Source: a virus | Reading direction: 5' to 3' (one strand) | Virus record (IMG/VR): IMGVR_UViG_3300022748_000034 | Coordinates: 1-34,160 of that record | DNA: 34,160 nt | Shown: one piece after another, positions 12,803 to 30,478 of the stretch | How positions within the stretch are numbered: the first letter of the stretch is position 1 | Layout: the number at the start of each line of letters is the position of its first letter | Notes under the pieces: model-generated | Seen by the model: the letters and a program-made list of their open reading frames with translations, nothing else | What the model was told of the DNA's origin: nothing | Database searches by the model: none | Made by a program: the position numbers and the translations under genes

Positions 12803-15304
12803 ATGGCTATTGAATACGTTTGGATTGGCGGTGATTCTGGAGAGTATTTGCCAATAGAAGTGCCGGACACTCCTGCTGCCGCCCCCGCTGCCGCTGCGCC
12901 AGCCGCTCCTGCTGCCGCCCCTTCTGCTCCAGGGTTGTCTGAGCAGCAAGTACAGCGATTGTCTGCTGAAGACTTGATGCGCCTGGTGGCTGACACCAAT
13001 GCCACGCAACAAGTTGACCCGTCAGTGTCCGGTGGCTTAACTGTTCCACTTGGCGGCGGCTACTTTGCGGACTACACGCAGCCAGGACGCTACTACGGTG
13101 AAGGCGAGTTTGTTCAAACAGGCCCACCTCAACTGTCAATGATTAGCCGTGACATCGGCAACAACTATGCTGAGGTTTACACGCCTCAAGGAGAGTATGT
13201 AGAAACTCGGTACATCCCGCCGAGCAACAGTTTCACCACCATGATTGCAATGGTGGCCGCCCCGTTCCTTGCAGAACTCATATTGCCAGTCATTTCTTCT
13301 GCGCTTCCGGCGGGAACAAGTGCCGCGACCGCAACGGCTGTGTCAAATGCTGTCGCAAGAGCTGGTGTTGCCATTGCTTCAGGACAAGACCCAGGAACCG
13401 CGATAGCCAATGCGGTTGTGTCGGTTGGGCTAAACACTTTTGGTGGAGATGTCACTGGTTCCATCAGAGATGCTATAGGCAACCCATCTGTTGCAAACGC
13501 AGTTATTGCTGCTGGCAATGCTGCTGTGCAAACTTTGGCAAATGGCGGGAGTGCAGATGATATTGCTCGGGCAGCCGTTGGAAGCGCACTAGGCACTGGC
13601 ATAGCAGATGCAGGTGGCAATCAATTTTTTGGCAGGTTGGTTGGTCAGCTTGCAACAGGTCAAAGCGCAGAGACAATTATTGGCAGTGCATTGGGTGGCG
13701 CGGCATCTCAAATTGCCAAAACGACAGCCGCATTGCCAACAAAGACCGTATTTGACGCAGGTTCAATGAATGTGTCTCAGGGCGCGGACGCAATCGTCAA
13801 TGCAATTGAAAAAGGCACTGAGCTTGCATTTGCTCCCGGCCCTGCTGGTGCTGCCGTTGGCGCAGCAAGCGCGGCGACTGAAGCATTGTTGATTCGTCTA
13901 GCAGCCACACCGCAGGGACAAGAGGCGCTACGGCAAGCAGCCACAGTATCGACAACAGTACGCGATGCTCTGATTGCTACCGGCGTATTTACTGGCGCTG
14001 GTGTTCTTGCGTTCATGCAAGGCGCATCTCTTGTACCAGAGAAACCGACTACGGCGACAGGCCAAAGTGTCAGCGAGCTTGTTCAGCAAATTCCTACAGG
14101 CATCTCTGGAACTGGCGGCACATCTACCGCTGGAGCTGGAAGGGGCGTAGTTAGCCCGCCGTTTGTTCGTCCTGTGACAACAACAGGCGCACCTGATGTG
14201 ACTGTTCTTCAGACATTGACGGGCACGGGATATACGCCGCCAGAAGCGTACATTGACAATACGCCCGTGCCGGTGACGGCTGATGTCATCAACGTCGCGG
14301 CAAGACTCAATTTGACGGTTGCAGAAGCACTTGCGTTGCAGCAACAAACGCCGACGCTATTTAGTCAGGTGGTCGGCAACGTCAATCAGGGAACGGCGGT
14401 TGAACCTGACCTCCTGCCGGTACGCGACCTTCGTATTCTTGAGTCGCTGCAACGTGGTCAACCAGACATTGATACTGGCAACGTGCTTGTTGTCGGAGAG
14501 CAAAAAGCACCAGGAAGTCAGGCAGTCATTTCTGGCGGTGAAACGACAGGTCAAGTTGTTCCTACTACTGGCACGGAATTTACTCAAGGCGTCGCGGTTT
14601 CTGTTGACCCGCAGAGCAAGACCGCTATGGTCATTTCTCCTGATGGACAAGTTTCTATTGTCAATGTGACGCCGGATGTGAAGCCTGGAACGTCCGTAAA
14701 CATTAACAGGGCGACCAATACAGCTACAAGCACTGGCACGGGCACTGATACTGGAACCAAAACCAAAACAGACACAAAAACAGACACGCAGACCGGAACC
14801 AAAGCGGGAACACAGACCGGCACTCAAACAGGGACAAAAACTGATACGCAAACAAAGACCGAAACCGGCACGAAGACGGGAACCACTGTCACAACAACAA
14901 CCGACACACCCATAACAACCACTCCTCCAGGCCCACCTGTGGTAACCCCGCCGGTGACTCCTCCCTCCGAGCCTCCCTCCGAGCCTCCGATTGAGCCTCC
15001 GATTGAGCCTCCGATTGAGCCTCCGATTGAGCCTCCGGTTGAGCCTCCGATTGAGCCTCCGGTTGAACCTCCGGTTGAGCCTCCGGTTAGGCCTCCGGTT
15101 GAGCCTCCGACAGTGGTGGTCAAACCTCCGGTCAGACCAAGGACGCCTATGCTGTTTCCGACTGTCTCTGTTCGCGGTTCACCTCTTGAGCAAGCTCTTA
15201 GCGCCTATGTGCCGCCGGGAGAAATTGAAGTTGGAACCGGGAAGTCTCGACGGGACGTTTGGAACGAGGCATCATTACGTCTGAAGGACGCTTTGGGACT
15301 TTAA
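12803..15304 (+). CDS. Internal virion/ejection-type protein with low-complexity repeat regions
   Basis: 833 aa. Has an N-terminal PAAAPAAAAPAAPAAAP tract, hydrophobic Ala/Gly-rich segments, a (Thr-x)n tract, (x-E-P-P)12 and a basic C-terminus. It is the first of four large genes occupying the position of podovirus internal proteins. Confidence 0.5.
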   Translation: MAIEYVWIGGDSGEYLPIEVPDTPAAAPAAAAPAAPAAAPSAPGLSEQQVQRLSAEDLMRLVADTNATQQVDPSVSGGLTVPLGGGYFADYTQPGRYYGEGEFVQTGPPQLSMISRDIGNNYAEVYTPQGEYVETRYIPPSNSFTTMIAMVAAPFLAELILPVISSALPAGTSAATATAVSNAVARAGVAIASGQDPGTAIANAVVSVGLNTFGGDVTGSIRDAIGNPSVANAVIAAGNAAVQTLANGGSADDIARAAVGSALGTGIADAGGNQFFGRLVGQLATGQSAETIIGSALGGAASQIAKTTAALPTKTVFDAGSMNVSQGADAIVNAIEKGTELAFAPGPAGAAVGAASAATEALLIRLAATPQGQEALRQAATVSTTVRDALIATGVFTGAGVLAFMQGASLVPEKPTTATGQSVSELVQQIPTGISGTGGTSTAGAGRGVVSPPFVRPVTTTGAPDVTVLQTLTGTGYTPPEAYIDNTPVPVTADVINVAARLNLTVAEALALQQQTPTLFSQVVGNVNQGTAVEPDLLPVRDLRILESLQRGQPDIDTGNVLVVGEQKAPGSQAVISGGETTGQVVPTTGTEFTQGVAVSVDPQSKTAMVISPDGQVSIVNVTPDVKPGTSVNINRATNTATSTGTGTDTGTKTKTDTKTDTQTGTKAGTQTGTQTGTKTDTQTKTETGTKTGTTVTTTTDTPITTTPPGPPVVTPPVTPPSEPPSEPPIEPPIEPPIEPPIEPPVEPPIEPPVEPPVEPPVRPPVEPPTVVVKPPVRPRTPMLFPTVSVRGSPLEQALSAYVPPGEIEVGTGKSRRDVWNEASLRLKDALGL
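14966..15109 (+). repeat. 12-bp tandem repeat x12 (consensus ATTGAGCCTCCG)
   Basis: Units counted directly: TCCGAGCCTCCC, TCCGAGCCTCCG, ATTGAGCCTCCG x4, GTTGAGCCTCCG, ATTGAGCCTCCG, GTTGAACCTCCG, GTTGAGCCTCCG, GTTAGGCCTCCG, GTTGAGCCTCCG. In frame they encode (S/I/V)(E/R)PP. Confidence 0.95.
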
Positions 15305-15305
15305 T

Positions 15306-16319
15306 ATGGCTAAAACTCTTAAAGACCTAACCCGTGTGGGCACAGATGCCCGCAAGATTGCTGCGCTGCTTCGTGAGAAGGCTCCGGCGGGGCATGACCT
15401 TGCGTGGATTAACCCGCGAGAGGCCGCATTGCTCAAAGCATCCGGCGGCAGCGGTCACATTGACCCGCAGACGGGCATTCGTTCGTATGAAGAAACGCCG
15501 CCCACTCCTTCTATGGACGATATTTATGCGTATGAAGAAGGGCCGGGAGGAGTCGTTGAAGCTGCGCCAGATGTCATCTCGCCATTTGCTCAAAATTACT
15601 ATAGTGGGCAGATTAGCCCTTTAGAGCAAGCAACTTTTACGCCTAGAGATGGCGTGCAGCCTGTGGACATTATGGCTCCCGGTGCTGCTCAAGCCGCCCC
15701 TCCTTCGGAAATTCCGTTTGGTGGCGTGCCGGTAACGACTCCAGATGCTCGCCAATACATTGAGGGGGCAGCCGCGCCTGGAACTCCGGCTGCGTTGGGT
15801 CAACCTCCGACCATGCCGCAAGCTGCTGCACCGGCGGCTGCTAAAACCGGCAAGGACAACTTGCTTGCTCAGCTTGGCATTGCAGGAGTCGGTGCGCTGC
15901 TCGGCGCTCGCGCAGGACGCAGGGCTACGGCTGGCGCTCAGGCTGGCGCACAAGAGATGCGTCAACTTGCAGCCCCGTATCAGCAAGCAGGACAGCAGCT
16001 TCAAGCGGCTGCTCAGCGCGGCGAACTGACTCCCGGCAGCCAGCAAGCATTGCAAGCCATGCAAGCGCAAATGGCTCAGGGCATTGAAAAACGTGGCGGT
16101 GTTGGCGTGGCTCAGGCTCAGGCAGCCATCTCTAACCTCCGAACTCAACTGCTTCAACAGCAATACGACTATGGCTTGAAGTTGTCCGGCATTGGTGACA
16201 ACATTGCGCTTGGCGCTATCAAGACCGGCATGGAAGCTGATAAGTATGCTGCTCAATTGAGCCAGAACTTCTACAGCAATTTGGCTCGTGTGGCTGGTGG
16301 CGCTTTGCGTTCGGAGTAA
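15306..16319 (+). CDS. Internal virion-type protein
   Basis: 337 aa. One hydrophobic segment (LLAQLGIAGVGALLGA) and an Ala/Gln-rich helical C-terminal half. The antisense ORF 15621-16352 is a shadow. Confidence 0.5.
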   Translation: MAKTLKDLTRVGTDARKIAALLREKAPAGHDLAWINPREAALLKASGGSGHIDPQTGIRSYEETPPTPSMDDIYAYEEGPGGVVEAAPDVISPFAQNYYSGQISPLEQATFTPRDGVQPVDIMAPGAAQAAPPSEIPFGGVPVTTPDARQYIEGAAAPGTPAALGQPPTMPQAAAPAAAKTGKDNLLAQLGIAGVGALLGARAGRRATAGAQAGAQEMRQLAAPYQQAGQQLQAAAQRGELTPGSQQALQAMQAQMAQGIEKRGGVGVAQAQAAISNLRTQLLQQQYDYGLKLSGIGDNIALGAIKTGMEADKYAAQLSQNFYSNLARVAGGALRSE

Positions 16320-16324
16320 AGAAC

Positions 16325-17776
16325 ATGGCTGAACCGCTCGCAAAAGCACCAACTCCTAAACTGCCGACAGGTCGCTTGGGGTTTGAGGATGTCATGGGCG
16401 TCCAAAAACCTTACAGAGAAATGAAAGCCGAAATTGGCGGCATGTTGGGCGCGGCTGAGGCTGACATTGCTGAGTCCAAACAGCGTCAGGCTGAAATCAA
16501 GGCTGAGGGATTGGCTCAGGCCGGAGAGCGCAGAGCGGGTGCTGAGCGCATGGCTCAAGAGCGTTTTGAGACAAAAATGCGCGAGGAGCCGCTGCCCGCA
16601 TTTGTGCCGACCAAGGACACGATTCAGGACGTTGCCGCGCTGTTTTCTTTGATTGGTGTCATCGGCATGGTTGTTGGCGGCGGCGGCAAGGGGAATGCGC
16701 TTGCTGCACAGGCAGCCATGAACGGAATGCTTGACGGTTGGCAAAAGGGCCGCAGCGACCTGTACAGCCGTGAGCGCAATGAGTTTGACAAGAACTTCAA
16801 GGCAATGGTTGCCAAGCACAACGAATTCCGCAAAGAGATGGAAGACGCTGTGAAGCTGGCGCAGACCGACTACAACGCAGGATTGCAAGCCGCTGAGCTT
16901 GCCGCAGCCAAGGCTGGCAGTGAAGTTGTCCAGGCGCAGCTACGCAAGGGCGAATTTCTGAATGCGTACAACGTGGTCAACGAGTCTCAGGCTGGTGTGA
17001 CCAAAGCTATAGAGTTTGAGCAAAAGGCTAGGCAAGAAGAAGAACGTCAGCGGCAGCGTGAGCTTGACCGTCAACAGCGTGAGGCGGCTGCTCAACAGCG
17101 TCATCAAGAAGCTATGGCTCGGCTGGAAGCGGCTGACCGCCGGTTCTTAGCGGCACAGACAGCTAAAGCAGAAGCCGGTGAAAAGAAAAAAGAAGGCAAA
17201 CCGCTGTCAGATAAACAGGTCACGACGATTGAGGGCATGGATTCTTTGGCATCTGGCCTTGAGAAGCTCAAGCGTGATTTCAAACCGGAGTTTGCAAGTC
17301 TCGGCGTCATGGGATTTGGCGCTGATATGGAGCTTGAGGCTCGCCGCCGACTTGGTGACGAGAAGGGTCGCCAGCTAGTCAAGTGGTGGTCGGAGTACCA
17401 GCGTCTGCAAGCGCCGAACCGTCACGCATTGTTTGGGGCTACGTTGACCGGCAACGAATTGAAGAACTATCAATCGTTCACGGCTAAGCCGTCTGACAGT
17501 CCTGATGTTGTCAAAGACATGCTGCAAAGCCAGATTGACTACGCAGGAAGCACTGCTGACTCCCGCAGATTGGCGTTTGAGCAAGCCGGTTACCGTGTGC
17601 CGGATGTCAAGCCGAGAGACTTCTCAAGCACCTATGGTGGCGGCGCTGGCGCGGCTCCCGCAGCCGGAGTTGATGTGGCTCAAGAGCGGTCGGCAGCAAA
17701 GGCTGCTATTGCGGCGGGCAAAGATGAAGCCGCCGTTAGAGCCAGATTCAAAGAGCGCACTGGACAGGAGCTGTAA
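16325..17776 (+). CDS. Internal virion-type protein
   Basis: 483 aa with GGAGT SD. Has a TM-like segment (AALFSLIGVIGMVVGGGG) and long charged helices. Confidence 0.5.
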   Translation: MAEPLAKAPTPKLPTGRLGFEDVMGVQKPYREMKAEIGGMLGAAEADIAESKQRQAEIKAEGLAQAGERRAGAERMAQERFETKMREEPLPAFVPTKDTIQDVAALFSLIGVIGMVVGGGGKGNALAAQAAMNGMLDGWQKGRSDLYSRERNEFDKNFKAMVAKHNEFRKEMEDAVKLAQTDYNAGLQAAELAAAKAGSEVVQAQLRKGEFLNAYNVVNESQAGVTKAIEFEQKARQEEERQRQRELDRQQREAAAQQRHQEAMARLEAADRRFLAAQTAKAEAGEKKKEGKPLSDKQVTTIEGMDSLASGLEKLKRDFKPEFASLGVMGFGADMELEARRRLGDEKGRQLVKWWSEYQRLQAPNRHALFGATLTGNELKNYQSFTAKPSDSPDVVKDMLQSQIDYAGSTADSRRLAFEQAGYRVPDVKPRDFSSTYGGGAGAAPAAGVDVAQERSAAKAAIAAGKDEAAVRARFKERTGQEL

Positions 17777-19851
17777 TGAACGGCTACGAAGACCTACCAG
17801 AAAAACAGAAATCTGCTGACCCATACGCAGACCTTCCCTCTGCTCAGATTCCTACTGGTGGCTACCCAACTGTCCCGCCTGGACAACCAGCGGGTGAGCC
17901 AAAGTTTCTTGAAAAAGCCACGATGTATGCGACGGCTGTGCCCGCCGCTGGACTTGTGTCACAAGCACTAAAGCTAGGTACTCGCGGCACTCAAATGGCT
18001 CCGTACGCCTCGCGCCTTGCCGAAGCATTAACGCCAACCACTTTGCGTGGATTGACTACGGCGACCGGCGCTGCTGGTGCTACTGCTATTCCTGCTGAGG
18101 CGACCCGAGCCGCACTGGAGCGCCGTGGCGCTGGCCCAGGCGCACAAGCCTTTGGAGAAACACTGGCTGGCGCAGCGACCGGAGGTGTTGGCTATTTGGG
18201 GGCCACAGGGCGTCGGTTGGCTCAGCGTGCTTTGGGCGGTGATGTAAAGCGAGAGGCTGCTGCGCTTCAACAAAAGACGGCGCAACAGTATCAACCGGCT
18301 ATCTCTGCTGCTGAACAAGAACGCGAGAGGGCCGCAAGAGTTGTCAGCCAAATGGAGCGGCAGCCCACTGTTGCGGCTGAACGGGCAGCACAAGCACCGT
18401 TAACTGCTGAACAGCAGCAAGCCGCATTGCAAGCTGAGGTGCGTCAGCCCGTAAGAGAGAAGGCGGCAGCTCAGAGGGTTAGCGCAGAGGAAGCGGCTCG
18501 CACTGCTGCTACTGAGGCGCGAATTGCAGAGCAAACAACTGCGGCTGCTCAACAGGCCGTGAACAATCTTGAACAGCGTTTGATGGCTCAGCCGACCATG
18601 ACTGCTGAGCAGTTCGGCGCTGAGCTACGCAAAGCTACGCAAGCCTTGCAGCAGCGTCTGGTTCAGCAGAGGGCAGAAGGCGCACAGCTTGGACAAGTCA
18701 TTCGTGCGGCTGGTTCAGACCCGACTGTTGACACTGCAAAGCTGATTGCTCAGGCTAAATCTCTGGCGACCAGGAGCCGCAACCCTCAAGTTCTTGCCAT
18801 GCTGTCGGAGGTTGAGTCGCTCGCCAAGACGGGTGACAAAGCTGCGTTGAGCCTGGAGCAAGTGGATTCGCTGCGGAAGTATCTGAACAAAGACATTATC
18901 AGCAAGTTCTTTGCTCAGACCGGCGCAGACAAGGAAACGCTCAAAGCACTGCGTTCGCTCAGGACAGCGCTGATTGAGGAAACTCCGAAGGCTTACCGCG
19001 AGGCGTTAGGCCAGTGGCGCACGCTATCTAGGCCGCTTGACATTGTGGAGCGCCAAGGCTCGCTCAAGCGTGTGGTGGACATTGACCCTGTAAGCACGGC
19101 TGAGAAGCTGACCGAGGCCCAGGTTGTCGGCGAAATCATCAACAAGGCTCGCGCTGGCAACCCTGTGTTTGCGCGTCTGCTTGAGACAAACCCGAACCTT
19201 AAAGAGTCTGCTCGCCTGTACTTCACGCAAGATTTGTTCGGCAAAGGCGTTGTGCCAACTCCGGCATCCTTGCGTACTTGGCTGACCAACAACGAGCGCC
19301 CGCTGCGCCAGCTCGGGCTGTATGACGAATTCAAGGACATGCGGCTTGCCAAGGAAGCTGCTCAACGGGCTGTTGATGAAGCCAAGCTGTCTGAGCGAGT
19401 GGCAACTCAGGTTGCGGCAGAAACCGGCAAAGAGGCAACGGCAGCCAGAAAACTGAGCGAGGAGTCTCAGCGTCGGCTGGAGTCGGCATTGAAGACCCGC
19501 GTTGGCCCTGCGCCAAAAGCCCCGGCTGGTGCGCCGATTCAGACGTTTATCCAGACGCGAGAGAAGCAAGCAGAGGCCGTGCAGTCGCTGACCAAGATGC
19601 AGACTGACATCAATGCAGCCAAGACGCCCGCAGAAATCCAGAAGTCTGTCGCTACCGCTGCAAACGATTTGCTCAAGCGAGGCATCATTGATGACGCTGG
19701 CTATCGCACCATGCTCAGGGATGTAGAGCGCCTGCAATCTATGACTGACGCTCGTGACAAGGCTCGTAAGATTATTGGGTACTTTGCCGGACTTGCTGGC
19801 ATTGGGTACTTGGGACGCAGGACAGCGGAATCCATCGTTGAAGGAAGGTGA
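17776..19851 (+). CDS. Internal virion-type protein (largest)
   Basis: 691 aa. Start overlaps the upstream stop (TAATG). Ala/Gln/Glu/Arg-rich helical protein with a C-terminal hydrophobic segment (IIGYFAGLAGIGYLG). Confidence 0.5.
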   Translation: MNGYEDLPEKQKSADPYADLPSAQIPTGGYPTVPPGQPAGEPKFLEKATMYATAVPAAGLVSQALKLGTRGTQMAPYASRLAEALTPTTLRGLTTATGAAGATAIPAEATRAALERRGAGPGAQAFGETLAGAATGGVGYLGATGRRLAQRALGGDVKREAAALQQKTAQQYQPAISAAEQERERAARVVSQMERQPTVAAERAAQAPLTAEQQQAALQAEVRQPVREKAAAQRVSAEEAARTAATEARIAEQTTAAAQQAVNNLEQRLMAQPTMTAEQFGAELRKATQALQQRLVQQRAEGAQLGQVIRAAGSDPTVDTAKLIAQAKSLATRSRNPQVLAMLSEVESLAKTGDKAALSLEQVDSLRKYLNKDIISKFFAQTGADKETLKALRSLRTALIEETPKAYREALGQWRTLSRPLDIVERQGSLKRVVDIDPVSTAEKLTEAQVVGEIINKARAGNPVFARLLETNPNLKESARLYFTQDLFGKGVVPTPASLRTWLTNNERPLRQLGLYDEFKDMRLAKEAAQRAVDEAKLSERVATQVAAETGKEATAARKLSEESQRRLESALKTRVGPAPKAPAGAPIQTFIQTREKQAEAVQSLTKMQTDINAAKTPAEIQKSVATAANDLLKRGIIDDAGYRTMLRDVERLQSMTDARDKARKIIGYFAGLAGIGYLGRRTAESIVEGR

Positions 19852-22713: not shown

Positions 22714-23456
22714 GGCGCGGGAATCGGCCCACCTTCAAACAGGTAGGAACCGAAGTGACCCAGGCGTACCCAGGGTGCGCCGTGAATCTTGAAGCCAGCT
22801 TTGCGAGCAATCTTGCAGAACGCATAGTCCTCGCTCAGCAGACGCTTCTCCTCCGGGTCAATGAACACCGGGAAGAACTCATGTATCTCATCCCTGGCAA
22901 GTTTGCCGTCAGCGGTTGAGACATCGTTCGTGTAGGTCGGCACAGTGTCCTTGAGTGTCTCAATGACTTTGCGCTTGATGAGCATGAAGCCCGTACCCCC
23001 GGCTGCAATTTCACACGGCTTATCCACAGGCACAGTGACCATGCCCTTGTTGTCCCCAATCAGGTTGACCACCATAGCGCCCGTGTAGTTCGTGAGCTGG
23101 TCAAACGGCACGTTGCCCTGCGTGGCTGCTGCATGGACGTTGTACCAGTTAATTTCCTTCTTTGGGTACAGACCGCAGATGATGTCCTGGTCAGCCTCCA
23201 GCATCGAGAAGATGTCGTGAGGATTGAACCGGATGTCAGCATCAATGAACATCAGGTGCGTGGCATCCTCGCGCTTGAGGAACTGGTGAGCCAGCAGGTT
23301 GCGTCCGCGCTGGATAAGCGACTCATTGAACAGGAACGAGAAGCTGACGTTCATGCCCTTGTCCCGAGCCAGTGTCGGCAACTGTACGCAGGACTGCGTA
23401 AAGAAGCCGGTGCATTGCCCGCCATACATCGGCGTAGCGATAAAGATGTGTGTCAT
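22710..23456 (-). CDS. Glycosyltransferase (GT-A fold, GT2-like)
   Basis: 248 aa. Has IATPMYGG at the N-terminus, a DxD motif in LMFIDADIRF and GGTGFMLIKR. No TM segment. Last gene of the early block. Confidence 0.55.
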   Translation of the reverse strand: MTHIFIATPMYGGQCTGFFTQSCVQLPTLARDKGMNVSFSFLFNESLIQRGRNLLAHQFLKREDATHLMFIDADIRFNPHDIFSMLEADQDIICGLYPKKEINWYNVHAAATQGNVPFDQLTNYTGAMVVNLIGDNKGMVTVPVDKPCEIAAGGTGFMLIKRKVIETLKDTVPTYTNDVSTADGKLARDEIHEFFPVFIDPEEKRLLSEDYAFCKIARKAGFKIHGAPWVRLGHFGSYLFEGGPIPAP

Positions 23457-23800
23457 TCGATAGTCTCTATGGTTACGAGGATTCGGCCACCGGAGACTTG
23501 CTGACCTCTGAGGATGTGTAGGTCATCCACCTGGAAGTCATCGTTAAAGACTCCCGCTTCCTGCAAGCTGTCCAGCACGCACTTGATGCGGTTGTCTAGG
23601 TCAATCTTGCGCTTGTCCCTCGGCTGAAGAATCATGGTTATCTTCAATTTGGCATCCCCGAATTTGGGTATGTTGTTCTCGCTGACGTACTCAGCCACGG
23701 CTAACTTGTACTCACGCCCCTTCTGAGACAGCACAGTGTGCCCTCGGAAGTTGCGCCAGTAGGTGTTGACGGATGGCGGGTACGGCAGCGTGAGCAGCAT
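23453..23800 (-). CDS. rusA: RusA-family Holliday junction resolvase
   Basis: Has LTLPYPPSVNTYW ... LSQKGREYK ... IDLDNRIKCVLDSLQEAGVFNDDFQVDDL. ATG 23800 overlaps the stop of the upstream peptide gene (TGATG). The track start 23848 is a GTG inside that gene. Confidence 0.8.
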   Translation of the reverse strand: MLLTLPYPPSVNTYWRNFRGHTVLSQKGREYKLAVAEYVSENNIPKFGDAKLKITMILQPRDKRKIDLDNRIKCVLDSLQEAGVFNDDFQVDDLHILRGQQVSGGRILVTIETIE

Positions 23801-23949
23801 CAGAAGCAGTTGGTGGTGCAGTTGCTTCCGTAGCAGCGGGTGGTACACATAACGGTTCTACCGTTCACAAAGTAGGTGTGCGTGGTGCAGTTTGCCCAAA
23901 CGAGAGAGGCAACGGTTGCAAGCCAAATACCGATAAGAGCTTTCTTCAT
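23800..23949 (-). CDS. Secreted Cys/Thr-rich mini-protein (49 aa precursor)
   Basis: AGGAGA SD lies 6 nt before ATG 23949. Translation MKKALIGIWLATVASLVWA|NCTTHTYFVNGRTVMCTTRCYGSNCTTNCF has a Sec-type signal peptide with a VWA cleavage motif. The 30-aa mature part has 5 Cys. Not in the ORF track (<60 aa). Confidence 0.55.
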   Translation of the reverse strand: MKKALIGIWLATVASLVWANCTTHTYFVNGRTVMCTTRCYGSNCTTNCF

Positions 23950-24450: not shown

Positions 24451-25299
24451 TCAGAATGTTTCCTCGCTGGCTTCCGAGCCTGCTGCTGACAGGGACTGTG
24501 GCGGCTTTGGGTTTGTGGTCACTCCTACCTTGACCAGCTCGGCTCGAATGCGAATCTTCTGCTCAGCAGTAAAGCCCTCTGTGACCGCTTTATTTGCCTC
24601 TGCAAGCCCCTTCATCTTGTCTTCCTTCTCTTGAGGCGTGAGCTTGGCAGAAGCGGCTATACGCCCCGCCAGAGCAGCGTAGGCGGCTGTCCAATCTTCT
24701 ACGCTTGTGTGTCGGCTAAACGGCTCGGCCGTTCCGGGGACGTATATTGGAAATGCACCGTCCTCGATTTCTTGGTCAACGATTTCCACAGCGCCCATGT
24801 CTTTGGGTGCAGACTCTTTCTGCTCTGGCGCAAAATCTTGGACTTCTTCAGGTGTATATACGCCCACAACGCATCCGGGGTATACAGCCCTAATGCCCTC
24901 CGAAATGCACCGCGCACGGAGCATTGCTCGCGGGTAATTCTTCCAGTTGTCTTTCGACGCAATGCCAATCTGCTTGGCCTTTGCGAGTGTCCAAGAGACG
25001 CTAAGTGAGCCGCCTGACGGATGAGAAAATACCCCCTCAACTCGCTCATCTGTGTACTCCTTCCATTCGACTTTGCCACCGGCCTGCTGGAAGCGAGCGA
25101 GCATGGCATCTGACTTGAGGGCAGGACGCCCATTGATAACGTGATAGTCACGCATGGCTATGCCTGGATGCAGACCTTCTGCTTGGCACAGCACCATGAT
25201 TGCGAGGGCTTCCTCAACATTCTTGAAGTTGAACATGCGGCTCTTGGCTGCTACCTCAGCCATCTGCGACATGTCTTGGTAGGGAATCAATTGACTCAT
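24451..25299 (-). CDS. recT: RecT-family single-strand annealing protein
   Basis: 282 aa from ATG 25299 (AGTGAGGTTCAC box directly upstream). Has EEALAIMVLCQAEGLHPGIAMRDYHVINGRPALKSDAM ... NWKNYPRAMLRARCISEGIRAVYP and is paired with a YqaJ-type exonuclease. Confidence 0.65.
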   Translation of the reverse strand: MSQLIPYQDMSQMAEVAAKSRMFNFKNVEEALAIMVLCQAEGLHPGIAMRDYHVINGRPALKSDAMLARFQQAGGKVEWKEYTDERVEGVFSHPSGGSLSVSWTLAKAKQIGIASKDNWKNYPRAMLRARCISEGIRAVYPGCVVGVYTPEEVQDFAPEQKESAPKDMGAVEIVDQEIEDGAFPIYVPGTAEPFSRHTSVEDWTAAYAALAGRIAASAKLTPQEKEDKMKGLAEANKAVTEGFTAEQKIRIRAELVKVGVTTNPKPPQSLSAAGSEASEETF

Positions 25300-25306
25300 G
25301 TGAACC

Positions 25307-25393
25307 TCACTTAAAGTAGTCAACAAGGGTGATTAGAAAGTCCAGGCTGGACGTAATAGCCATCACCCAAACGGCTATATCGGTTGAAGTCAT
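25307..25393 (-). CDS. Hydrophobic micro-protein (28 aa)
   Basis: ATGA-coupled to the upstream gene. Translation MTSTDIAVWVMAITSSLDFLITLVDYFK. Its stop lies in the recT SD box. Confidence 0.35.
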   Translation of the reverse strand: MTSTDIAVWVMAITSSLDFLITLVDYFK

Positions 25394-25636: not shown

Positions 25637-26527
25637 TCACTTGACTAGGAAGCGCCGTGAACCGGCCTTCTCAACAACGAACTGGTCATACATGGCGGGG
25701 TTGGCTGCCTGAAAGAGCTTGGCATCGAAGGCTTTGCTTGCCTTGGCTGACTTCCAGGTGCAGAGGATTTCCCCGTCCACAGTGGTCAGCGTGTCAGCAT
25801 CCCCGAGGTAGCCTTGTAGGGCTGCCTGGAACGCTGCCTCACGTTCCTCTAGGGCTTTGATTTCAGCCTTGATGAGCTTGAGTGTCTTGGCTGCTTGCTC
25901 AACAGTGCCGGTGGCTGTCTTCACAGAGTCCTTGCTGACAGGGAACATCAGCTTGGCCTGCTCAACGTCTTCCGGTGCGTAGGGTGTCTGAGCCTGGATG
26001 CGCCCCCAATGCTCAGCCATGCGCTGAATCAGCTCGTCCTTCTGCTCGTCATGGATGTCGAAAGGGAACAAGACAAACTCCTGACCGCCGAATAGGACAG
26101 CCAGATAAATCTTGTCCACACCGAACACGGCCGCCTCATGTATGAGTTGCGCCATGTCAGCTGGAGGAATGACGCTGCCATCGAACTTGCCGCGTACAGC
26201 TGCTGAATAGTTCTTAGCTTCCACAAGGACGGTCTTGCCGTTCTCTTTGCCAGCAAAGTCAAAGTGCGACTTGAACCAGGGATGCTTAGGATGGACAAGG
26301 GACTCCTCCACTTTGGTTAGCTCAATCTTGAGCCTGTCCTGGGCTAGTCTACCGATGACAGGTTCCATGACATGTCCCATCTGAACAGCCTCTACGTCAG
26401 ACAAGTCAGGGATAGGTAATTTCCCTAGCTTGGTCAGGATGACCTCGTTGGCTTTCCCATTGGCTGCCTTGCGGGAGTCACCAGACCACCAAGCTGAGTT
26501 ACGGGTTTCGGGGCTGAAGTCACTCAT
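25637..26527 (-). CDS. YqaJ/lambda-Exo-like PD-(D/E)xK exonuclease
   Basis: 296 aa. Has GHVMEPVIGRL, then HFDFAGKENGKTVLVEAKN (D...ExK) and QLIHEAAVFG. Sits upstream of recT. Confidence 0.7.
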   Translation of the reverse strand: MSDFSPETRNSAWWSGDSRKAANGKANEVILTKLGKLPIPDLSDVEAVQMGHVMEPVIGRLAQDRLKIELTKVEESLVHPKHPWFKSHFDFAGKENGKTVLVEAKNYSAAVRGKFDGSVIPPADMAQLIHEAAVFGVDKIYLAVLFGGQEFVLFPFDIHDEQKDELIQRMAEHWGRIQAQTPYAPEDVEQAKLMFPVSKDSVKTATGTVEQAAKTLKLIKAEIKALEEREAAFQAALQGYLGDADTLTTVDGEILCTWKSAKASKAFDAKLFQAANPAMYDQFVVEKAGSRRFLVK

Positions 26528-26786
26528 AAGCTACTCCCAAGCCGTTGGGCAGGATGACGATGTTTTCGGGGTTGGTGTTCTGGATGGTGTCCGGGGATTC
26601 CCAGAGCCGACCGGATTGGCCACAGCCAGTGCTACGGGCGTTAAAACAGGAAAGGTAGGGGTAGGCTATGTATTGCCCGTCAATCGGGCTTCTAGAGCCT
26701 TCTAGAGCCTTGCAAAGGCCCTTCTGAGCATCGTTAGGGAAGTCAGGGTTCGGCGTGTAGTGCCGGCAATCTATGCAGAGTTTCAT
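26520..26786 (-). CDS. Cys-rich small protein (possible zinc ribbon)
   Basis: 88 aa with CIDC ... C ... C ... C spacing. AGTGAGGTTCAC box directly upstream of the ATG. Confidence 0.55.
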   Translation of the reverse strand: MKLCIDCRHYTPNPDFPNDAQKGLCKALEGSRSPIDGQYIAYPYLSCFNARSTGCGQSGRLWESPDTIQNTNPENIVILPNGLGVAYE

Positions 26787-26834: not shown

Positions 26835-27092
26835 TTAGGTGTCAAGTGGTTTGTTGCTCCTTGCTCTGATGGCGGAGGCGCAGTCTCTTGGCCCACTTGC
26901 TGAGTCAGGCTCGTCATCCCATCGCCACGTGTCGTGCTTGTCGTCACACACCTTCGCACACGCCTCACGCTCACGCTCGGCAACAAGTGCGGCGAAGCGG
27001 CGCAGGAAAACAATGTCCTTCTCTGGCGTTTCGGATAGCTCGGGAAAGGCTCCGGCCTCACGCGCCATGCGGATGATGTCATCTCTAGTCAT
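26835..27092 (-). CDS. Hypothetical early protein (85 aa)
   Basis: MTRDDIIRMAREAGAF... is an N-terminus common in small proteobacterial phage proteins. Confidence 0.6.
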   Translation of the reverse strand: MTRDDIIRMAREAGAFPELSETPEKDIVFLRRFAALVAEREREACAKVCDDKHDTWRWDDEPDSASGPRDCASAIRARSNKPLDT

Positions 27093-27119
27093 AGGTCACC
27101 GGTCAGCTCTAGGGCTAGG

Positions 27120-27320
27120 TCAATGAGGTAGCGAGGCACTGGCTGACTCTCCCTCACTTTGTCGAGCAGCTTGTTGGCTTCGTATGTGCTGTAGCTTGAC
27201 AAGCTCCAGGCAGCGTTGGGCCTCCCTGTAATGGTGCAGATACTCGATTTGGGGGTTGTCCTTGTACCTAGCTCGTAGTTCATCGACGCGACCTTTCAGA
27301 ATCTTGATTGCCTCGTTCAT
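27120..27320 (-). CDS. Hypothetical early protein (66 aa; C-terminus uncertain)
   Basis: ATGA-coupled to the alpha-CTD-like gene. The N-terminal 45 aa look helical and the last ~20 aa are low complexity. The +1-frame ORF 27089-27283 may supply the true C-terminus. Confidence 0.5.
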   Translation of the reverse strand: MNEAIKILKGRVDELRARYKDNPQIEYLHHYREAQRCLELVKLQHIRSQQAARQSEGESASASLPH

Positions 27321-27703
27321 AGGTTCTCCGTAGGGTGTTCACCGGGGAGGTATTTGCCGTGGGCTGCTAGCGTCTCTGCAAGCTCATTGACAGACTTCTT
27401 GCCCATATTGGGTATCTTCATCAATGCTCGGCGATTCATTTTGAGCAGCTTGTCCAGGCTGTCTACGCCCTCATCCCTCAGACAATGCAGCGTGCGTACA
27501 GTCAGATTGCGACTGAAGTCTTGCCATGCAGCAGCGGATTCCTTGTCGCCCTCTAGCTTGGCAACCTCCTCCTCGTCGTAGTAACCGAGCGCCCTAGCAA
27601 TGCACTGCGCTCTATTGACCAGCTCGTGCGTCTTGACATCCTGCCGGTGAGCAGCAAGAACACAGAACACTTGAAAGACCTTCTCTCTATCTAGTTTCAT
27701 CAT
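27317..27703 (-). CDS. Free-standing RNA polymerase alpha-subunit C-terminal-domain (alpha-CTD)-like protein
   Basis: 128 aa from ATG 27703 (GAGGG SD 5 nt upstream). NLTVRTLHCLRDEGVDSLDKLLKMNRRALMKIPNMGKKSVNELAETLAAHGKYL aligns to the RpoA CTD helix-hairpin-helix region. Confidence 0.6.
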   Translation of the reverse strand: MMKLDREKVFQVFCVLAAHRQDVKTHELVNRAQCIARALGYYDEEEVAKLEGDKESAAAWQDFSRNLTVRTLHCLRDEGVDSLDKLLKMNRRALMKIPNMGKKSVNELAETLAAHGKYLPGEHPTENL

Positions 27704-27736
27704 CGTCACCCTCTAAAAAAACCAATGCGTACCACA

Positions 27737-27755: not shown

Positions 27756-27814
27756 CACCAGACTGAGGACTAACCAGTCAGTAAACATAAGCGACATGCT
27801 TGATGGTGAGCAAA

Positions 27815-27842
27815 GCCTAGCCCTCCCAAGCAAGGGCTAGGC
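27815..27842 (-). terminator. Intrinsic-terminator-like hairpin
   Basis: GCCTAGCCCT-N8-AGGGCTAGGC, a perfect 10-bp stem. On the minus strand it is followed by only TTTG, a short U-tract. Confidence 0.5.
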
Positions 27843-28104
27843 CTTCCACATGCTCGACGGAGCCGCACATGCCCGACAGCCGTTCGCTCAGAGCCGCTAT
27901 CTTCGCCAGCTCTCCCGGTGTCTCAGAGCTTTCCCACAGTACCGGGTTTCCCGCATCCCTGCCGTATGGGTCACCGACAGATGCGCGGTTGGCGTGGGCA
28001 ACAAAAAAGCCGTTAAGTTCTAGCCCCGGTGAGAAAACATCCTTGCGGGATGCCGCCCCAATGGGGCCAGGACTAGACTTAACGGCTCTCTGCTGGTTTC
28101 TCAC
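27817..28104 (-). CDS. Leaderless-type 95-aa ORF or non-coding structured transcript (unresolved)
   Basis: GTG start with no SD, ~6 nt from the predicted +1 of promoter 28118-28145. The stop codon lies inside the terminator stem. The 5' third carries a 14-bp long-range helix. Confidence 0.3.
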   Translation of the reverse strand: MRNQQRAVKSSPGPIGAASRKDVFSPGLELNGFFVAHANRASVGDPYGRDAGNPVLWESSETPGELAKIAALSERLSGMCGSVEHVEGLALAWEG

Positions 28105-28117
28105 GCCAACGCTCGCA

Positions 28118-28145
28118 AGTATATCGGGATGTTTGTGGCCGTCAA
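28118..28145 (-). promoter_or_regulatory. Sigma70-type promoter (minus strand)
   Basis: TTGACG (28145-28140), 16 nt, TATACT (28123-28118). Same -10 and spacing as the promoter at 29714-29741. Confidence 0.5.
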
Positions 28146-29665: not shown

Positions 29666-29713
29666 GGTAGGCACTGCCTTTCGTGGTTGCGTCGTTCAAT
29701 CAACGACAGCACT

Positions 29714-29741
29714 AGTATAGACTAGTTAGAATGCTTGTCAA
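29714..29741 (-). promoter_or_regulatory. Main early leftward sigma70-type promoter
   Basis: Consensus TTGACA (29741-29736), 16 nt, TATACT (29719-29714). It sits ~40 nt upstream of the first early ORF. Confidence 0.6.
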
Positions 29742-29778
29742 CCCCTATCGCACTAGGTTTTACTAACTGTTGCACATG

Positions 29779-29850
29779 CTAGTCCATGACCTAGCATCTA
29801 GTAGAGGGTTACAATCTAGTTAACCTACATCTAGTGTGTGTATCTACTAG
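29779..29850. repeat. CTAG-rich iteron/operator cluster
   Basis: ATCTAGT at 29796, 29814 and 29829 (18- and 15-bp spacing), ATCTACTAG at 29842 and CTAGTCCAT at 29779. I counted 9 CTAG tetramers between 29712 and 29850. Confidence 0.6.
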
Positions 29851-29942
29851 ACTGTGAGCATGGTCGCTTGTCAGAAGTCCGGGGGGGCTGCCCCTATCCG
29901 TTCCCCCGGGTCGATAGGTTTTGCCTATGGGGTCTGGTCTGG

Positions 29943-29993
29943 GGTCGCCCTGTGATGACGCGCAGGGCATTCCCGGTCGCCATGTGATGACGC
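29943..29993. repeat. Two 19-nt direct repeats GGTCGCC(C/A)TGTGATGACGC, 32-bp period
   Basis: Copies at 29943-29961 and 29975-29993 (18/19 identical), inside a GC-rich non-coding island. Confidence 0.8.
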
Positions 29994-30190
29994 ATCCCCG
30001 GCCTGGGTCTGGGCATCGACGCAGTGCAGCACGGCCTAGACGCGCTGCCGTGGCCCTAGTGAGTGGGTCGAGGGGGGCTGTAGGGTGTGCCCCCCACATT
30101 CCCTCCCCCCAAAAAAATTTCTAGTTTTTGGCTAGATGCCGTAGGATGTGATTGCTGACAACGTGCAGTTGCCAGCAGCTCCAAGCACTT

Positions 30191-30218
30191 AGGGCTACCG
30201 TTGCGTAGCCCTTTTTTT
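30191..30218 (+). terminator. Rho-independent terminator
   Basis: AGGGCTAC-cgttgc-GTAGCCCT (8-bp stem, 6-nt loop) followed by a T7 run. It lies 39 nt upstream of the first late ORF. Confidence 0.7.
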
Positions 30219-30229
30219 GCCTGTAGTAT
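30201..30229 (+). promoter_or_regulatory. Candidate late-operon promoter overlapping the terminator
   Basis: TTGCGT (30201-30206), 17 nt, TAGTAT (30224-30229). Confidence 0.3.
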
Positions 30230-30256
30230 TGCGGTATAGAGTTACTAGGGTAGAAG

Positions 30257-30478
30257 ATGATTACTGATATAGCTGTTCAGAAGGGCTATGAGATGCCTGC
30301 TCAGCGGGTGGTGTATGCGTACCCGTATGAGGAGATGGAGGTTGGGGATTCGTTTGTTGTGCCGCTGTCTGCGAGGCAGAAGGTGTTGAATGCCAACAGC
30401 AGGGCGTCTAAGAGGTTGGGGATGCGGTTCAGTGCGAGGACTGAGGGTGATGTAGTCAGGGTTTGGCGAACAGGCTAG
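30257..30478 (+). CDS. First late-operon protein (73 aa)
   Basis: Contains YPYEEMEVGDSFVVP. Unknown function. Confidence 0.6.
   Translation: MITDIAVQKGYEMPAQRVVYAYPYEEMEVGDSFVVPLSARQKVLNANSRASKRLGMRFSARTEGDVVRVWRTG

What the first reader, a model, noticed from the sequence alone, without database searches (positions are those of the whole stretch)
27317..27703. Phage-encoded free-standing RNA polymerase alpha-CTD-like protein at the head of the delayed-early genes
Residues ~65-120 (NLTVRTLHCLRDEGVDSLDKLLKMNRRALMKIPNMGKKSVNELAETLAAHGKYL) align without gaps to the C-terminal domain of bacterial RpoA. The E. coli sequence, recalled from memory, is [53 protein letters not shown]. The alignment includes counterparts of the DNA/UP-element contact residues R265 and G296-K297-K298-S299. 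The N-terminal ~60 aa do not resemble the alpha N-terminal domain, so this is an isolated alpha-CTD module. The phage has no RNA polymerase of its own. The gene is the first one after the strong hairpin at 27815-27842. A soluble alpha-CTD copy could titrate UP elements or class-I activators away from host promoters, or bridge host RNAP to phage DNA. I know of no characterised phage protein of this kind.
Basis: partly seen in the sequence, partly recalled or inferred. Interest (0 to 1): 0.72.

Follow-up and report, generated by a model that had tools for sequence, protein, structure and literature searches.

The report
Free-standing RNA polymerase alpha-CTD phage protein
A small early phage gene really does encode a stand-alone copy of the DNA-binding tail domain of the bacterial RNA polymerase alpha subunit, but it belongs to a large, already catalogued and untested family of phage proteins, so its role is still a guess.

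Summary
Window 27317-27703 (- strand) encodes a 128-aa protein. Residues 66-118 are an RNA polymerase alpha C-terminal domain (αCTD): Pfam PF03118 E=8e-15, and the AlphaFold model superposes on solved αCTDs at 0.8-1.0 Å. The DNA/UP-element contact residues are kept (R265, N294, G296, K297, K298, S299, E302; only N268→H). The patches that contact sigma and CAP are not kept. The N-terminal 64 residues form a three-helix domain with no detectable relatives.

The protein is not unique. At least 526 metagenomic proteins and 51 IMG/VR viral loci carry similar small αCTD proteins. UniProt already auto-names several [quoted passage not shown]. I found no experimental paper on them. All nine distinct contexts examined are phage regions with recombination or replication genes within about 4 kb.

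The domain also occurs in tandem arrays and fused to sigma region 4 or SNF2 helicases, so it behaves as a portable DNA-binding module.

My best reading is an autonomous binder of A/T-rich minor grooves that modulates promoter use or DNA transactions. A decoy for class-I activators is not supported.

The "strong hairpin" upstream belongs to a conserved structured phage RNA (Rfam RF02932 plus a 3′ extension). That RNA is not otherwise linked to αCTD genes.

The parts
27317..27703 (-). CDS of the 128-aa free-standing αCTD protein (stop included)
   Evidence: ORF list and sequence. A 99% identical protein P0001 lies on two metagenome contigs. A full-length relative, P0004, is 49% identical.
27512..27703 (-). 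N-terminal domain, residues 1-64: three predicted helices (6-19, 25-39, 44-64) of unknown function, possibly for oligomerisation or partner binding
   Evidence: AF2 model with pLDDT >85 over this part. The domain is weakly conserved across relatives (A32 near-invariant). It has no PDB relative by profile (best E=0.027) and is not sigma-region-4-like (hhalign probability 0.2%).
27350..27508 (-). αCTD-type (HhH)2 domain, residues 66-118, with the DNA-contact residues R70, H73, C74, N99, G101, K102, K103, S104, E107
   Evidence: Pfam PF03118 E=8e-15. PDB phmmer. Foldseek rmsd 0.8-1.0 Å to solved αCTDs. Residue mapping and family conservation.
27709..27713 (-). Shine-Dalgarno-like GAGGG, 5 nt upstream of the ATG
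   Evidence: Read directly from the sequence.
27120..27320 (-). Downstream 66-aa ORF whose ATG overlaps the αCTD stop codon (ATGA), suggesting translational coupling
   Evidence: Sequence. The same ATGA overlap with an unrelated downstream ORF occurs in the 49%-identical relative L064. A second ORF in another frame (27089-27283) was the one called on L001.
27812..27845 (-). It is the variable stem of the 3′ extension of the conserved RNA and is followed by UUUG.
   Evidence: RNA fold: z = -3.75 for the 171-nt region. Not called a terminator. An equivalent variable hairpin is flanked by conserved GAAGG and GGAGGGCTAGG in 24 viral contigs.
27871..27987 (-). Structured RNA, Rfam RF02932 (Betaproteobacteria-1 RNA), lying inside the probably spurious 95-aa ORF 27817-28104
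   Evidence: cmscan 87.3 bits against gathering 49.4, model positions 1-120 of 120. Covariation supports the first two stems in 24 phage copies.
27791..27819 (-). Conserved non-coding block (3′ arm of the hairpin plus GCTCACCA...)
   Evidence: 28/29 nt are identical to L064, whereas the adjacent αCTD CDS is 56% identical at the nucleotide level. The block is conserved in the RNA alignment A6.
28118..28145 (-). Sigma-70-like promoter match (TTGACG-16-TATACT, 10 of 12) upstream of the RNA and the αCTD gene
   Evidence: Consensus scan only. This is not evidence of function.

Best explanation
The gene encodes a small early phage protein of two domains: a roughly 64-residue three-helix N-terminal domain and an RNAP-αCTD-type (HhH)2 DNA-binding domain. 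It belongs to a widespread, uncharacterised family of environmental phage proteins with this architecture.

Shown: the fold, the family, the retained minor-groove/UP-element contact set, and the loss of the sigma-contact and CAP-contact patches.

Inferred: the protein binds DNA on its own, independently of RNAP core, through the R265-type arginine and the N294/G296-S299 hairpin. It would prefer narrow A/T-rich minor grooves as the host αCTD does. The N-domain probably supplies oligomerisation or a partner contact that raises affinity.

Most likely consequence: it occupies UP-like or upstream promoter DNA, or phage DNA near the early and recombination genes. That would modulate promoter use by host RNAP early in infection. 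I do not think it acts as a decoy for activator proteins.
For: Domain identity.

DNA-contact residues are almost invariant over 135 small relatives:
- R265 100%
- G296 100%
- N294 99%
- E302 98%
- S299 96%
- C269 94%
- K298 81% K plus 16% R
- K297 91% R

Selection therefore acts on the DNA-binding surface.

The family is large and phage-borne. All nine distinct contexts are phage regions with recombination or replication genes nearby.

The same domain is reused as a DNA-binding module. It forms arrays of up to 10 copies and is fused to SNF2 helicases. In two viral contigs it is fused to sigma-70 region 4, the other upstream-promoter reader of RNAP. That fusion points to promoter DNA as a target for phage αCTD modules.

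There is precedent for phages attacking the αCTD-UP interaction. T4 Alt and ModA ADP-ribosylate R265 (PMC2988021). Phage G1 gp67 blocks αCTD binding to UP elements at rRNA promoters (PMC3694059).
Against: - There are no binding or expression data.
- From established knowledge, an isolated αCTD binds DNA weakly, so a monomer would be a poor competitor. Oligomerisation of the N-domain is only assumed.
- N268 is H in this protein. The family splits 50% N, 36% R and 11% H at that position.
- No striking UP-like A/T arrays were found in the 54.7% G+C window.
- Synteny with recombination genes fits a DNA-metabolism role just as well.
- The host is unknown. The only hint is the Betaproteobacteria-type RNA next door.
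Confidence: 0.45

Rival explanations
1. The protein is an accessory DNA-binding factor of the phage recombination/replication module. The (HhH)2 domain would tether or orient the exonuclease and annealase (YqaJ/RecE-like plus RecT/Sak/ERF), RusA or the replisome on DNA. The N-domain would contact one of those proteins.
For: In the window the gene lies about 0.8 kb upstream, on the same strand, of a YqaJ/RecE-like exonuclease, a RecT-like annealase and RusA. In L057 it sits between Sak and YqaJ-SSB with overlapping start and stop codons. Other contexts have PDDEXK, Sak, ERF, RusA, RecA_dep_nuc or primase-helicase genes within 0-4 kb. Neighbour Pfam counts over 20 viral loci are led by YqaJ, SSB and PDDEXK_1, with RdgC, RecT and RusA also present. 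HhH domains are common in repair and recombination proteins, and several HhH families hit the αCTD arrays.
Against: Distance and order relative to the recombination genes vary. Such genes are ordinary content of phage early regions, and no background comparison was made. In L055 and L059 the gene lies near the terminase end of the operon, several genes away from RusA. The closest sequence and structure relatives are all RpoA, not RuvA, Rad51 or ComEA.
Confidence: 0.25
2. The protein is a molecular decoy of the host αCTD. The free domain would titrate proteins that normally dock on the αCTD: class-I activators, NusA AR2, Spx-like factors, ADP-ribosyltransferases or a defence sensor. It would not act on DNA.
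For: The domain is a close structural copy of the αCTD. From established knowledge (Schweimer et al. 2011, not checked here), NusA AR2 binds the same R265 surface that is conserved in this family.
Against: The surfaces used by CAP (287 determinant: V287→R, E288→A, R317→E) and by sigma region 4 (261 determinant: D259→S, E261→N in the ungapped register) are not kept in the query. They are variable in the family. Near-invariance of exactly the DNA-contact residues is more simply explained by DNA binding. The domain's occurrence in arrays and helicase fusions argues for a generic DNA module.
Confidence: 0.12
3. The protein is a transcription activator of phage promoters. The αCTD-like domain would bind upstream DNA and the N-domain would recruit or stabilise host RNAP, for example for late genes.
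For: No other late-gene regulator was recognised in the window. In L055 and L059 the gene sits in the region between RusA and the terminase genes, which by my own recall corresponds to the lambda nin region. Sigma-r4 plus αCTD fusions exist in phages.
Against: There is no evidence that the N-domain contacts RNAP. It has no similarity to known activators. No conserved A/T-rich site was seen upstream of the late operon.
Confidence: 0.13

Closest known systems
C-terminal domain of the bacterial RNA polymerase alpha subunit (RpoA αCTD; Pfam PF03118; e.g. PDB 1LB2, 3N4M, 3K4G)
   Same: The fold is the same: rmsd 0.8-1.0 Å and about 37-40% identity. The DNA/UP-element contact residues are also kept (R265, C269, N294, G296, K297, K298, S299, E302).
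   Different: There is no alpha N-terminal domain and no flexible linker to RNAP core. N268 is H. The protein is phage-encoded and carries an unrelated three-helix N-domain.
Uncharacterised small proteins auto-named 'RNA polymerase, alpha subunit, C-terminal [uncultured Caudovirales phage]' (UniProt A0A6J5MNY7, A0A6J5L490, A0A6J5NZM6 and others), with their metagenomic and IMG/VR relatives
   Same: They share the size (111-137 aa) and the architecture of a helical N-domain plus a C-terminal αCTD, and they are phage-borne.
   Different: Only 25-50% identical. PHROGs has no family for them. None has a tested function, as far as my searches show.
Phage strategies against the αCTD-UP element interaction: T4 Alt/ModA (ADP-ribosylation of R265) and S. 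aureus phage G1 gp67
   Same: If the competitor model is right, the outcome would be the same: selective loss of UP-element-dependent host transcription (PMC2988021, PMC3694059).
   Different: The mechanisms differ. Alt and ModA covalently modify α, and gp67 binds sigma region 4. There is no sequence or fold relationship to this protein. The functional parallel is a hypothesis only.
Sigma-70 region 4 plus αCTD fusion proteins in viral contigs (L028 206 aa, L035 235 aa) and multi-αCTD cellular proteins (P0002, P0008, P0012, P0017, P0020)
   Same: They carry the same αCTD-type module outside RNAP core.
   Different: The query has no sigma-region-4 domain (hhalign probability 0.2%), no repeats and no helicase.

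Membership tests
RNA_pol_A_CTD domain (Pfam PF03118) | Profile score above the Pfam gathering threshold | tested here: met
   54.8 bits against 23.8, E=8e-15, residues 66-113
RNA_pol_A_CTD domain (Pfam PF03118) | Compact helical (HhH)2-like fold superposable on solved αCTDs | tested here: met
   AF2 pLDDT 88.8. Foldseek rmsd 0.8-1.0 Å over 54-59 residues to 1lb2_E, 3n4m and 1z3e_B.
RNA_pol_A_CTD domain (Pfam PF03118) | DNA-binding '265 determinant' (R265, N268, N294, G296, K298, S299, E302; the residue list is from the literature) | tested here: met
   6 of 7 residues are identical, with N268→H. They are near-invariant in 135 relatives. DNA binding itself was not tested.
Bacterial RNA polymerase alpha subunit (RpoA) | Alpha N-terminal dimerisation and core-assembly domain | tested here: not met
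   Pfam hits are only PF03118 and a weak HHH_5 match. NCBIfam rpoA equivalogs score 49 bits or less against cut-offs of 228-523 and match the CTD only. The protein is 128 aa.
Bacterial RNA polymerase alpha subunit (RpoA) | Activator- and sigma-contact patches (287 and 261 determinants) | tested here: not met
   V287→R, E288→A, R317→E, D259→S, E261→N. These positions are variable across the family.
Small phage 'N-domain plus αCTD' protein family (unnamed) | Full-length alignment, including the N-terminal helical domain, to other 115-137-aa phage or metagenome proteins | tested here: met
   P0004 is 49% identical over residues 2-124. Alignments A1 and A2. 526 profile hits.
Small phage 'N-domain plus αCTD' protein family (unnamed) | Location in a phage genome, in a region with recombination or replication genes nearby | tested here: met
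   The window has portal, capsid and terminase genes plus a - strand operon with YqaJ/RecE-like, RecT-like and RusA genes. Relatives.
Sigma-r4 plus αCTD fusion proteins | Sigma-70 region 4 HTH N-terminal to the αCTD | tested here: not met
   No Sigma70_r4 hit. hhalign of the N-domain profile against sigma-r4 segments gives probability 0.2%.
NCBIfam NF005841 (PRK07758, 95-aa hypothetical αCTD-like protein) | Score above the curated cut-off | tested here: not met
   17.7 bits against 115

The most novel reading that the evidence does not exclude
The phage makes a free, probably oligomeric, copy of the host polymerase's own UP-element reader. The copy competes with RNAP αCTD for UP elements, or for NusA AR2. 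That would selectively shut down rRNA and other UP-dependent host promoters. It would be a third, non-enzymatic route to the outcome that T4 Alt/ModA and phage G1 gp67 achieve. The sigma-r4 plus αCTD fusions seen in other phages would then be complete mimics of RNAP's upstream-promoter recognition.
Probability: 0.2. Interest if true: 0.75.

Novelty: new variant of a known kind. Interest (0 to 1): 0.5.

Why it matters
The αCTD is the hub through which UP elements and many activators control bacterial promoters, and phages are known to attack it by modification or occlusion.

A large family of phage proteins consisting of little more than a free αCTD with an intact DNA-contact surface would be a new class of phage-encoded DNA-binding or transcription-modulating factors, if they act on promoters. 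It would also offer a natural tool for probing UP-element function.

If the proteins instead serve recombination or replication, they would show that the αCTD fold is a general portable DNA-binding module, not an RNAP-specific one. Either result is cheap to test by EMSA, in vitro transcription and toxicity on induction.

The find is tempered because a routine Pfam scan recognises the domain and databases already list many such proteins.

Tried and rejected
- **GenBank phages, DNA search:** no match.
- **GenBank phages, protein searches with three family members:** where the records are annotated, the hits are rpoA genes, on records that look like bacterial sequence filed as phage. The remaining hits are unannotated. 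No recognisable family member turned up.
- **PHROGs:** no significant family.
- **Single-sequence AlphaFold:** unusable, pLDDT 51. Replaced by the alignment-based model.
- **N-domain profile against PDB:** best E=0.027, a myosin coiled coil. Not significant.
- **N-domain against sigma region 4 by hhalign:** probability 0.2%. Rejected.
- **GTDB genome scan with the protein:** one distant hit (27% identity) in an Acetivibrionales MAG, not examined further. No close prophage relative and no host assignment.
- **A/T-rich or UP-like tracts in the window:** nothing striking.
- **Link between the upstream RNA and αCTD genes:** rejected. None of the 41 viral stretches matching the RNA pattern encodes an αCTD protein. 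None of the 10 αCTD-bearing loci from other phages holds the RNA.
- **Recent capture of a host rpoA fragment:** unlikely. Identity to every RpoA is only about 30-45%, and the family is broad and divergent.
- **Literature:** no paper on phage αCTD homologues. The Weinberg 2017 main text does not discuss the Betaproteobacteria-1 motif, and its supplements are not held.

Full report
**1. The observation**

The finding's coordinates hold an ORF on the - strand. It starts at ATG 27703 (alternative GTG 27709), stops at 27317-27319 and encodes 128 aa. A GAGGG Shine-Dalgarno lies 5 nt upstream of the ATG.

Pfam places an RNA_pol_A_CTD domain at residues 66-113, with E=8e-15 and 54.8 bits against a gathering score of 23.8. 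phmmer against all PDB sequences returns 51 distinct RpoA sequences and nothing else of significance. The best E-value is 2.8e-8, and the alignments are ungapped over residues 66-119.

In the ungapped register 21 of 53 positions are identical. R70 corresponds to R265, C74 to C269, N99 to N294, G101-K102-K103-S104 to G296-S299, and E107 to E302. N268 is replaced by H73.

A single-sequence AlphaFold model was poor (pLDDT 51). With a 44-sequence alignment of relatives the model reaches pLDDT 88.8. Foldseek against PDB then returns only RpoA chains. Isolated αCTDs superpose at 0.8-1.0 Å over 54-59 residues.

The N-terminal 64 residues are predicted as three helices. They do not match the alpha N-terminal domain.

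**2. The element that carries the gene**

The window is a phage genome or most of one, 34.2 kb at 54.7% G+C. The + strand carries portal, major capsid, tail and large terminase genes.

A - strand operon runs from about 29.7 kb down to 22.7 kb. It contains the αCTD gene, a YqaJ/RecE-like exonuclease (25637-26527), a RecT-like annealase (24451-25326) and RusA (23453-23848).

No RNA polymerase family was detected in the ORFs scanned. Four large structural ORFs had no match in the PHROGs or Pfam scans run on them. The phage has no DNA-level relative among GenBank phages. The protein has no close relative in GTDB reference genomes.

**3. The protein is one of many**

An exhaustive HMMER search of 1.84 billion representatives gave 985 hits at E<1e-3. 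They include full-length relatives of similar size. P0004, 123 aa, is 49% identical over residues 2-124.

A profile of ten such proteins found 526 proteins. The 120 listed are 115-157 aa, carry PF03118 as the main Pfam domain (a few add HHH_5), and are all from metagenomes.

A scan of IMG/VR found 51 viral loci. They fall into about 20 protein clusters with diverse N-terminal parts. A common 116-aa type accounts for 17 of the loci.

Foldseek against predicted viral structures shows that UniProt already auto-names several 111-135-aa proteins 'RNA polymerase, alpha subunit, C-terminal [uncultured Caudovirales phage]'. It also lists αCTD-containing proteins in Rhodococcus phage Finch and Mycobacterium phage Mithril.

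PHROGs has no family for the protein. Seven literature searches found no paper characterising a phage αCTD homologue.

So such proteins are catalogued but uncharacterised. This one is a new and rather divergent member.

**4. What is conserved**

I aligned 135 small relatives with E. coli αCTD. The residues known from the literature to contact UP-element DNA are nearly invariant:

| E. coli residue | Conservation in 135 relatives |
|---|---|
| R265 | 100% |
| G296 | 100% |
| N294 | 99% |
| E302 | 98% |
| S299 | 96% |
| C269 | 94% |
| K298 | 81% K, 16% R |
| K297 | 91% R |
| N268 | 50% N, 36% R, 11% H |

The patch that contacts sigma region 4 (D259, E261) is not conserved. Nor is the patch that contacts CAP (V287, E288, R317). 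This holds for the query and for the family.

Selection has therefore kept the DNA-binding surface, not the protein-docking surfaces.

The N-domain is only weakly conserved, with A32 near-invariant. It has no relative in PDB by profile search and is not sigma-region-4-like.

**5. Context in relatives**

In all nine distinct contexts the gene lies in a phage region with recombination or replication genes within 0-4 kb:

- L054: RusA and PDDEXK upstream, primase-helicase downstream.
- L055 and L059: downstream of DnaB, RusA and RecA_dep_nuc, and upstream of terminase.
- L057: between Sak and YqaJ-SSB, with overlapping start and stop codons.
- L060, L061, L062: PDDEXK, Sak, ERF or YqaJ genes nearby.

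Pfam counts over 131 neighbour proteins from 20 viral loci are led by YqaJ, SSB and PDDEXK_1, with RdgC, RecT and RusA also present. This is suggestive. Such genes are ordinary content of phage early regions, however, and I made no background comparison.

**6. The domain as a portable module**

The top hits of the exhaustive search include proteins with up to 10 tandem αCTD domains (P0002). Others carry three copies plus a SNF2 helicase (P0020), or three copies plus sigma-70 region 4 (P0008, P0012, P0017).

Two viral-contig proteins, L028 and L035, are sigma-region-4 plus αCTD fusions. These join the two RNAP modules that read adjacent upstream promoter DNA.

The αCTD fold is therefore used widely outside RNAP core as a DNA-binding unit. 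In phages it is at least sometimes paired with a promoter-reading domain.

**7. Mechanism**

*Best-supported explanation (confidence 0.45).* The protein binds DNA autonomously through the αCTD-type surface, preferring A/T-rich minor grooves. Its N-domain supplies oligomerisation or a partner contact. The protein modulates promoter use by host RNAP, or DNA transactions, early in infection.

Only the fold, the residue conservation and the context are shown. DNA binding, oligomerisation and the target are inferred.

Competition with RNAP αCTD for UP elements is the most interesting specific version. It has functional precedents: T4 Alt and ModA modify R265, and phage G1 gp67 blocks αCTD-UP binding.

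*Rivals.*
- A recombination/replication accessory factor (0.25).
- A decoy for αCTD-binding proteins (0.12). The missing 261 and 287 determinants disfavour this.
- An activator of phage promoters (0.13).

**8. The hairpin and the 'delayed-early' claim**

The hairpin is real, with a 14-bp stem at 27812-27845. Its tail is only UUUG, and the terminator scan did not call it.

Rfam finds a full-length Betaproteobacteria-1 RNA (RF02932, 87.3 bits against 49.4) at 27871-27987 on the same strand. It lies inside a 95-aa ORF that is therefore probably not a gene.

A pattern scan found 41 matching stretches in IMG/VR contigs. Of these, 24 distinct full-length copies, including the window's own, could be aligned. 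In that alignment the Rfam motif continues into a conserved 3′ extension. The extension reads GGCUCC, then GAAGG, a variable hairpin, GGAGGGCUAGG-UUUU-GCUCACCA, and a short direct repeat of the preceding loop.

RNAalifold supports the first two stems by covariation. It also proposes that GGCUCC can pair with GGAGGGCU, an alternative to the local hairpin. That would fit a switchable terminator, but this is unproven.

In L064, the 49%-identical relative, the 29 nt at the 3′ arm of the hairpin are 28/29 identical, while the CDS is 56% identical. The RNA-then-αCTD order is therefore shared within this lineage.

It is not general. None of the 41 pattern-matching stretches encodes an αCTD protein. 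Their downstream genes vary. No αCTD locus from another phage has the RNA.

The statement that the gene heads the delayed-early class is therefore unverified. It is the first ORF after a conserved structured RNA that may or may not terminate transcription.

**9. Verdict**

Novelty is moderate. A known domain appears in a free-standing phage architecture that databases list but nobody appears to have studied. The interest lies in the near-perfect conservation of the DNA-contact surface across a large phage family, and in the sigma-r4 fusions. Together these make a transcription-related role testable with simple experiments.

Noticed in passing
window 27871-27987 (-), extending to about 27791: There is a full-length Rfam RF02932 (Betaproteobacteria-1 RNA) hit inside a 95-aa ORF that is probably spurious. 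A pattern scan found 41 matching stretches in IMG/VR contigs, and 24 distinct full-length copies (including the window's) could be aligned. They share a conserved 3′ extension not covered by the Rfam model: GGCUCC, GAAGG, a variable hairpin, GGAGGGCUAGGUUUUGCUCACCA, and a short co-varying direct repeat. The genes downstream vary. It may be a cis-acting terminator or antiterminator element, or a phage sRNA. It is also a hint that the host is a betaproteobacterium.
   Followed up: partly
window 29700-29860: Nine CTAG sites cluster within 150 bp, although CTAG is under-represented genome-wide (78 observed, 131 expected). The cluster sits among divergent sigma-70-like promoter matches (- strand 29741-29714, 11 of 12; + strand 29703-29732 and 29786-29815). 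It is probably the early control region with operator repeats. ACTAG-type sites also flank the αCTD gene's upstream region.
   Followed up: partly
window 29860-30260: This is about 400 bp of apparently non-coding, G+C-rich DNA. It holds two 19-nt direct repeats (GGTCGCCNTGTGATGACGC, 29943-29993), G-run inverted repeats and an A7T3 tract. A strong + strand intrinsic terminator lies at 30191-30212. The 96-aa ORF 29809-30099 looks spurious. The region could be an origin, or a pac or cos site.
   Followed up: no
L028:7560-8180 and L035:7467-8174 (IMG/VR contigs); P0008, P0012, P0017: These proteins fuse sigma-70 region 4 with one to three αCTD domains. They join the two RNAP modules that read the -35 and UP elements in one polypeptide, in phage contigs and in unidentified metagenomic proteins.
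   Followed up: partly
P0002 (1031 aa), P0003, P0006, P0020 (metagenome proteins): These proteins carry up to 10 tandem αCTD domains, or αCTD repeats attached to a SNF2 helicase. The αCTD fold is widely reused outside RNA polymerase.
   Followed up: partly
window 27089-27320 (-): Two overlapping ORFs lie in different frames just downstream of the αCTD gene. The 66-aa ORF 27120-27320 starts at an ATGA overlap with the αCTD stop codon. The 64-aa ORF 27089-27283 is the one called on the near-identical contig L001. This could be a frameshift, or one of the two is spurious.
   Followed up: no
window 26520-26786 (-): An 88-aa cysteine-rich ORF (CxxC...C...C pattern) overlaps the start of the YqaJ/RecE-like exonuclease gene. 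It has no family match.
   Followed up: no
window 12803-19851 (+): Four consecutive large ORFs (833, 337, 483 and 691 aa) in the structural module gave no match: the 833- and 691-aa ORFs in both PHROGs and Pfam, the 337- and 483-aa ORFs in Pfam only. They may be internal or ejection proteins.
   Followed up: no
GenBank 'phage' records CAKLQH020000003.1, CAKLQF020000004.1, AFYI01000003.1, AGRM01000003.1 (and possibly OR851339.1): Records in the phage collection carry an annotated bacterial rpoA gene. They appear to be bacterial sequence filed as phage. OR851339.1 gives the same match but has no annotation. They produce false 'phage αCTD' hits in tblastn.
   Followed up: no
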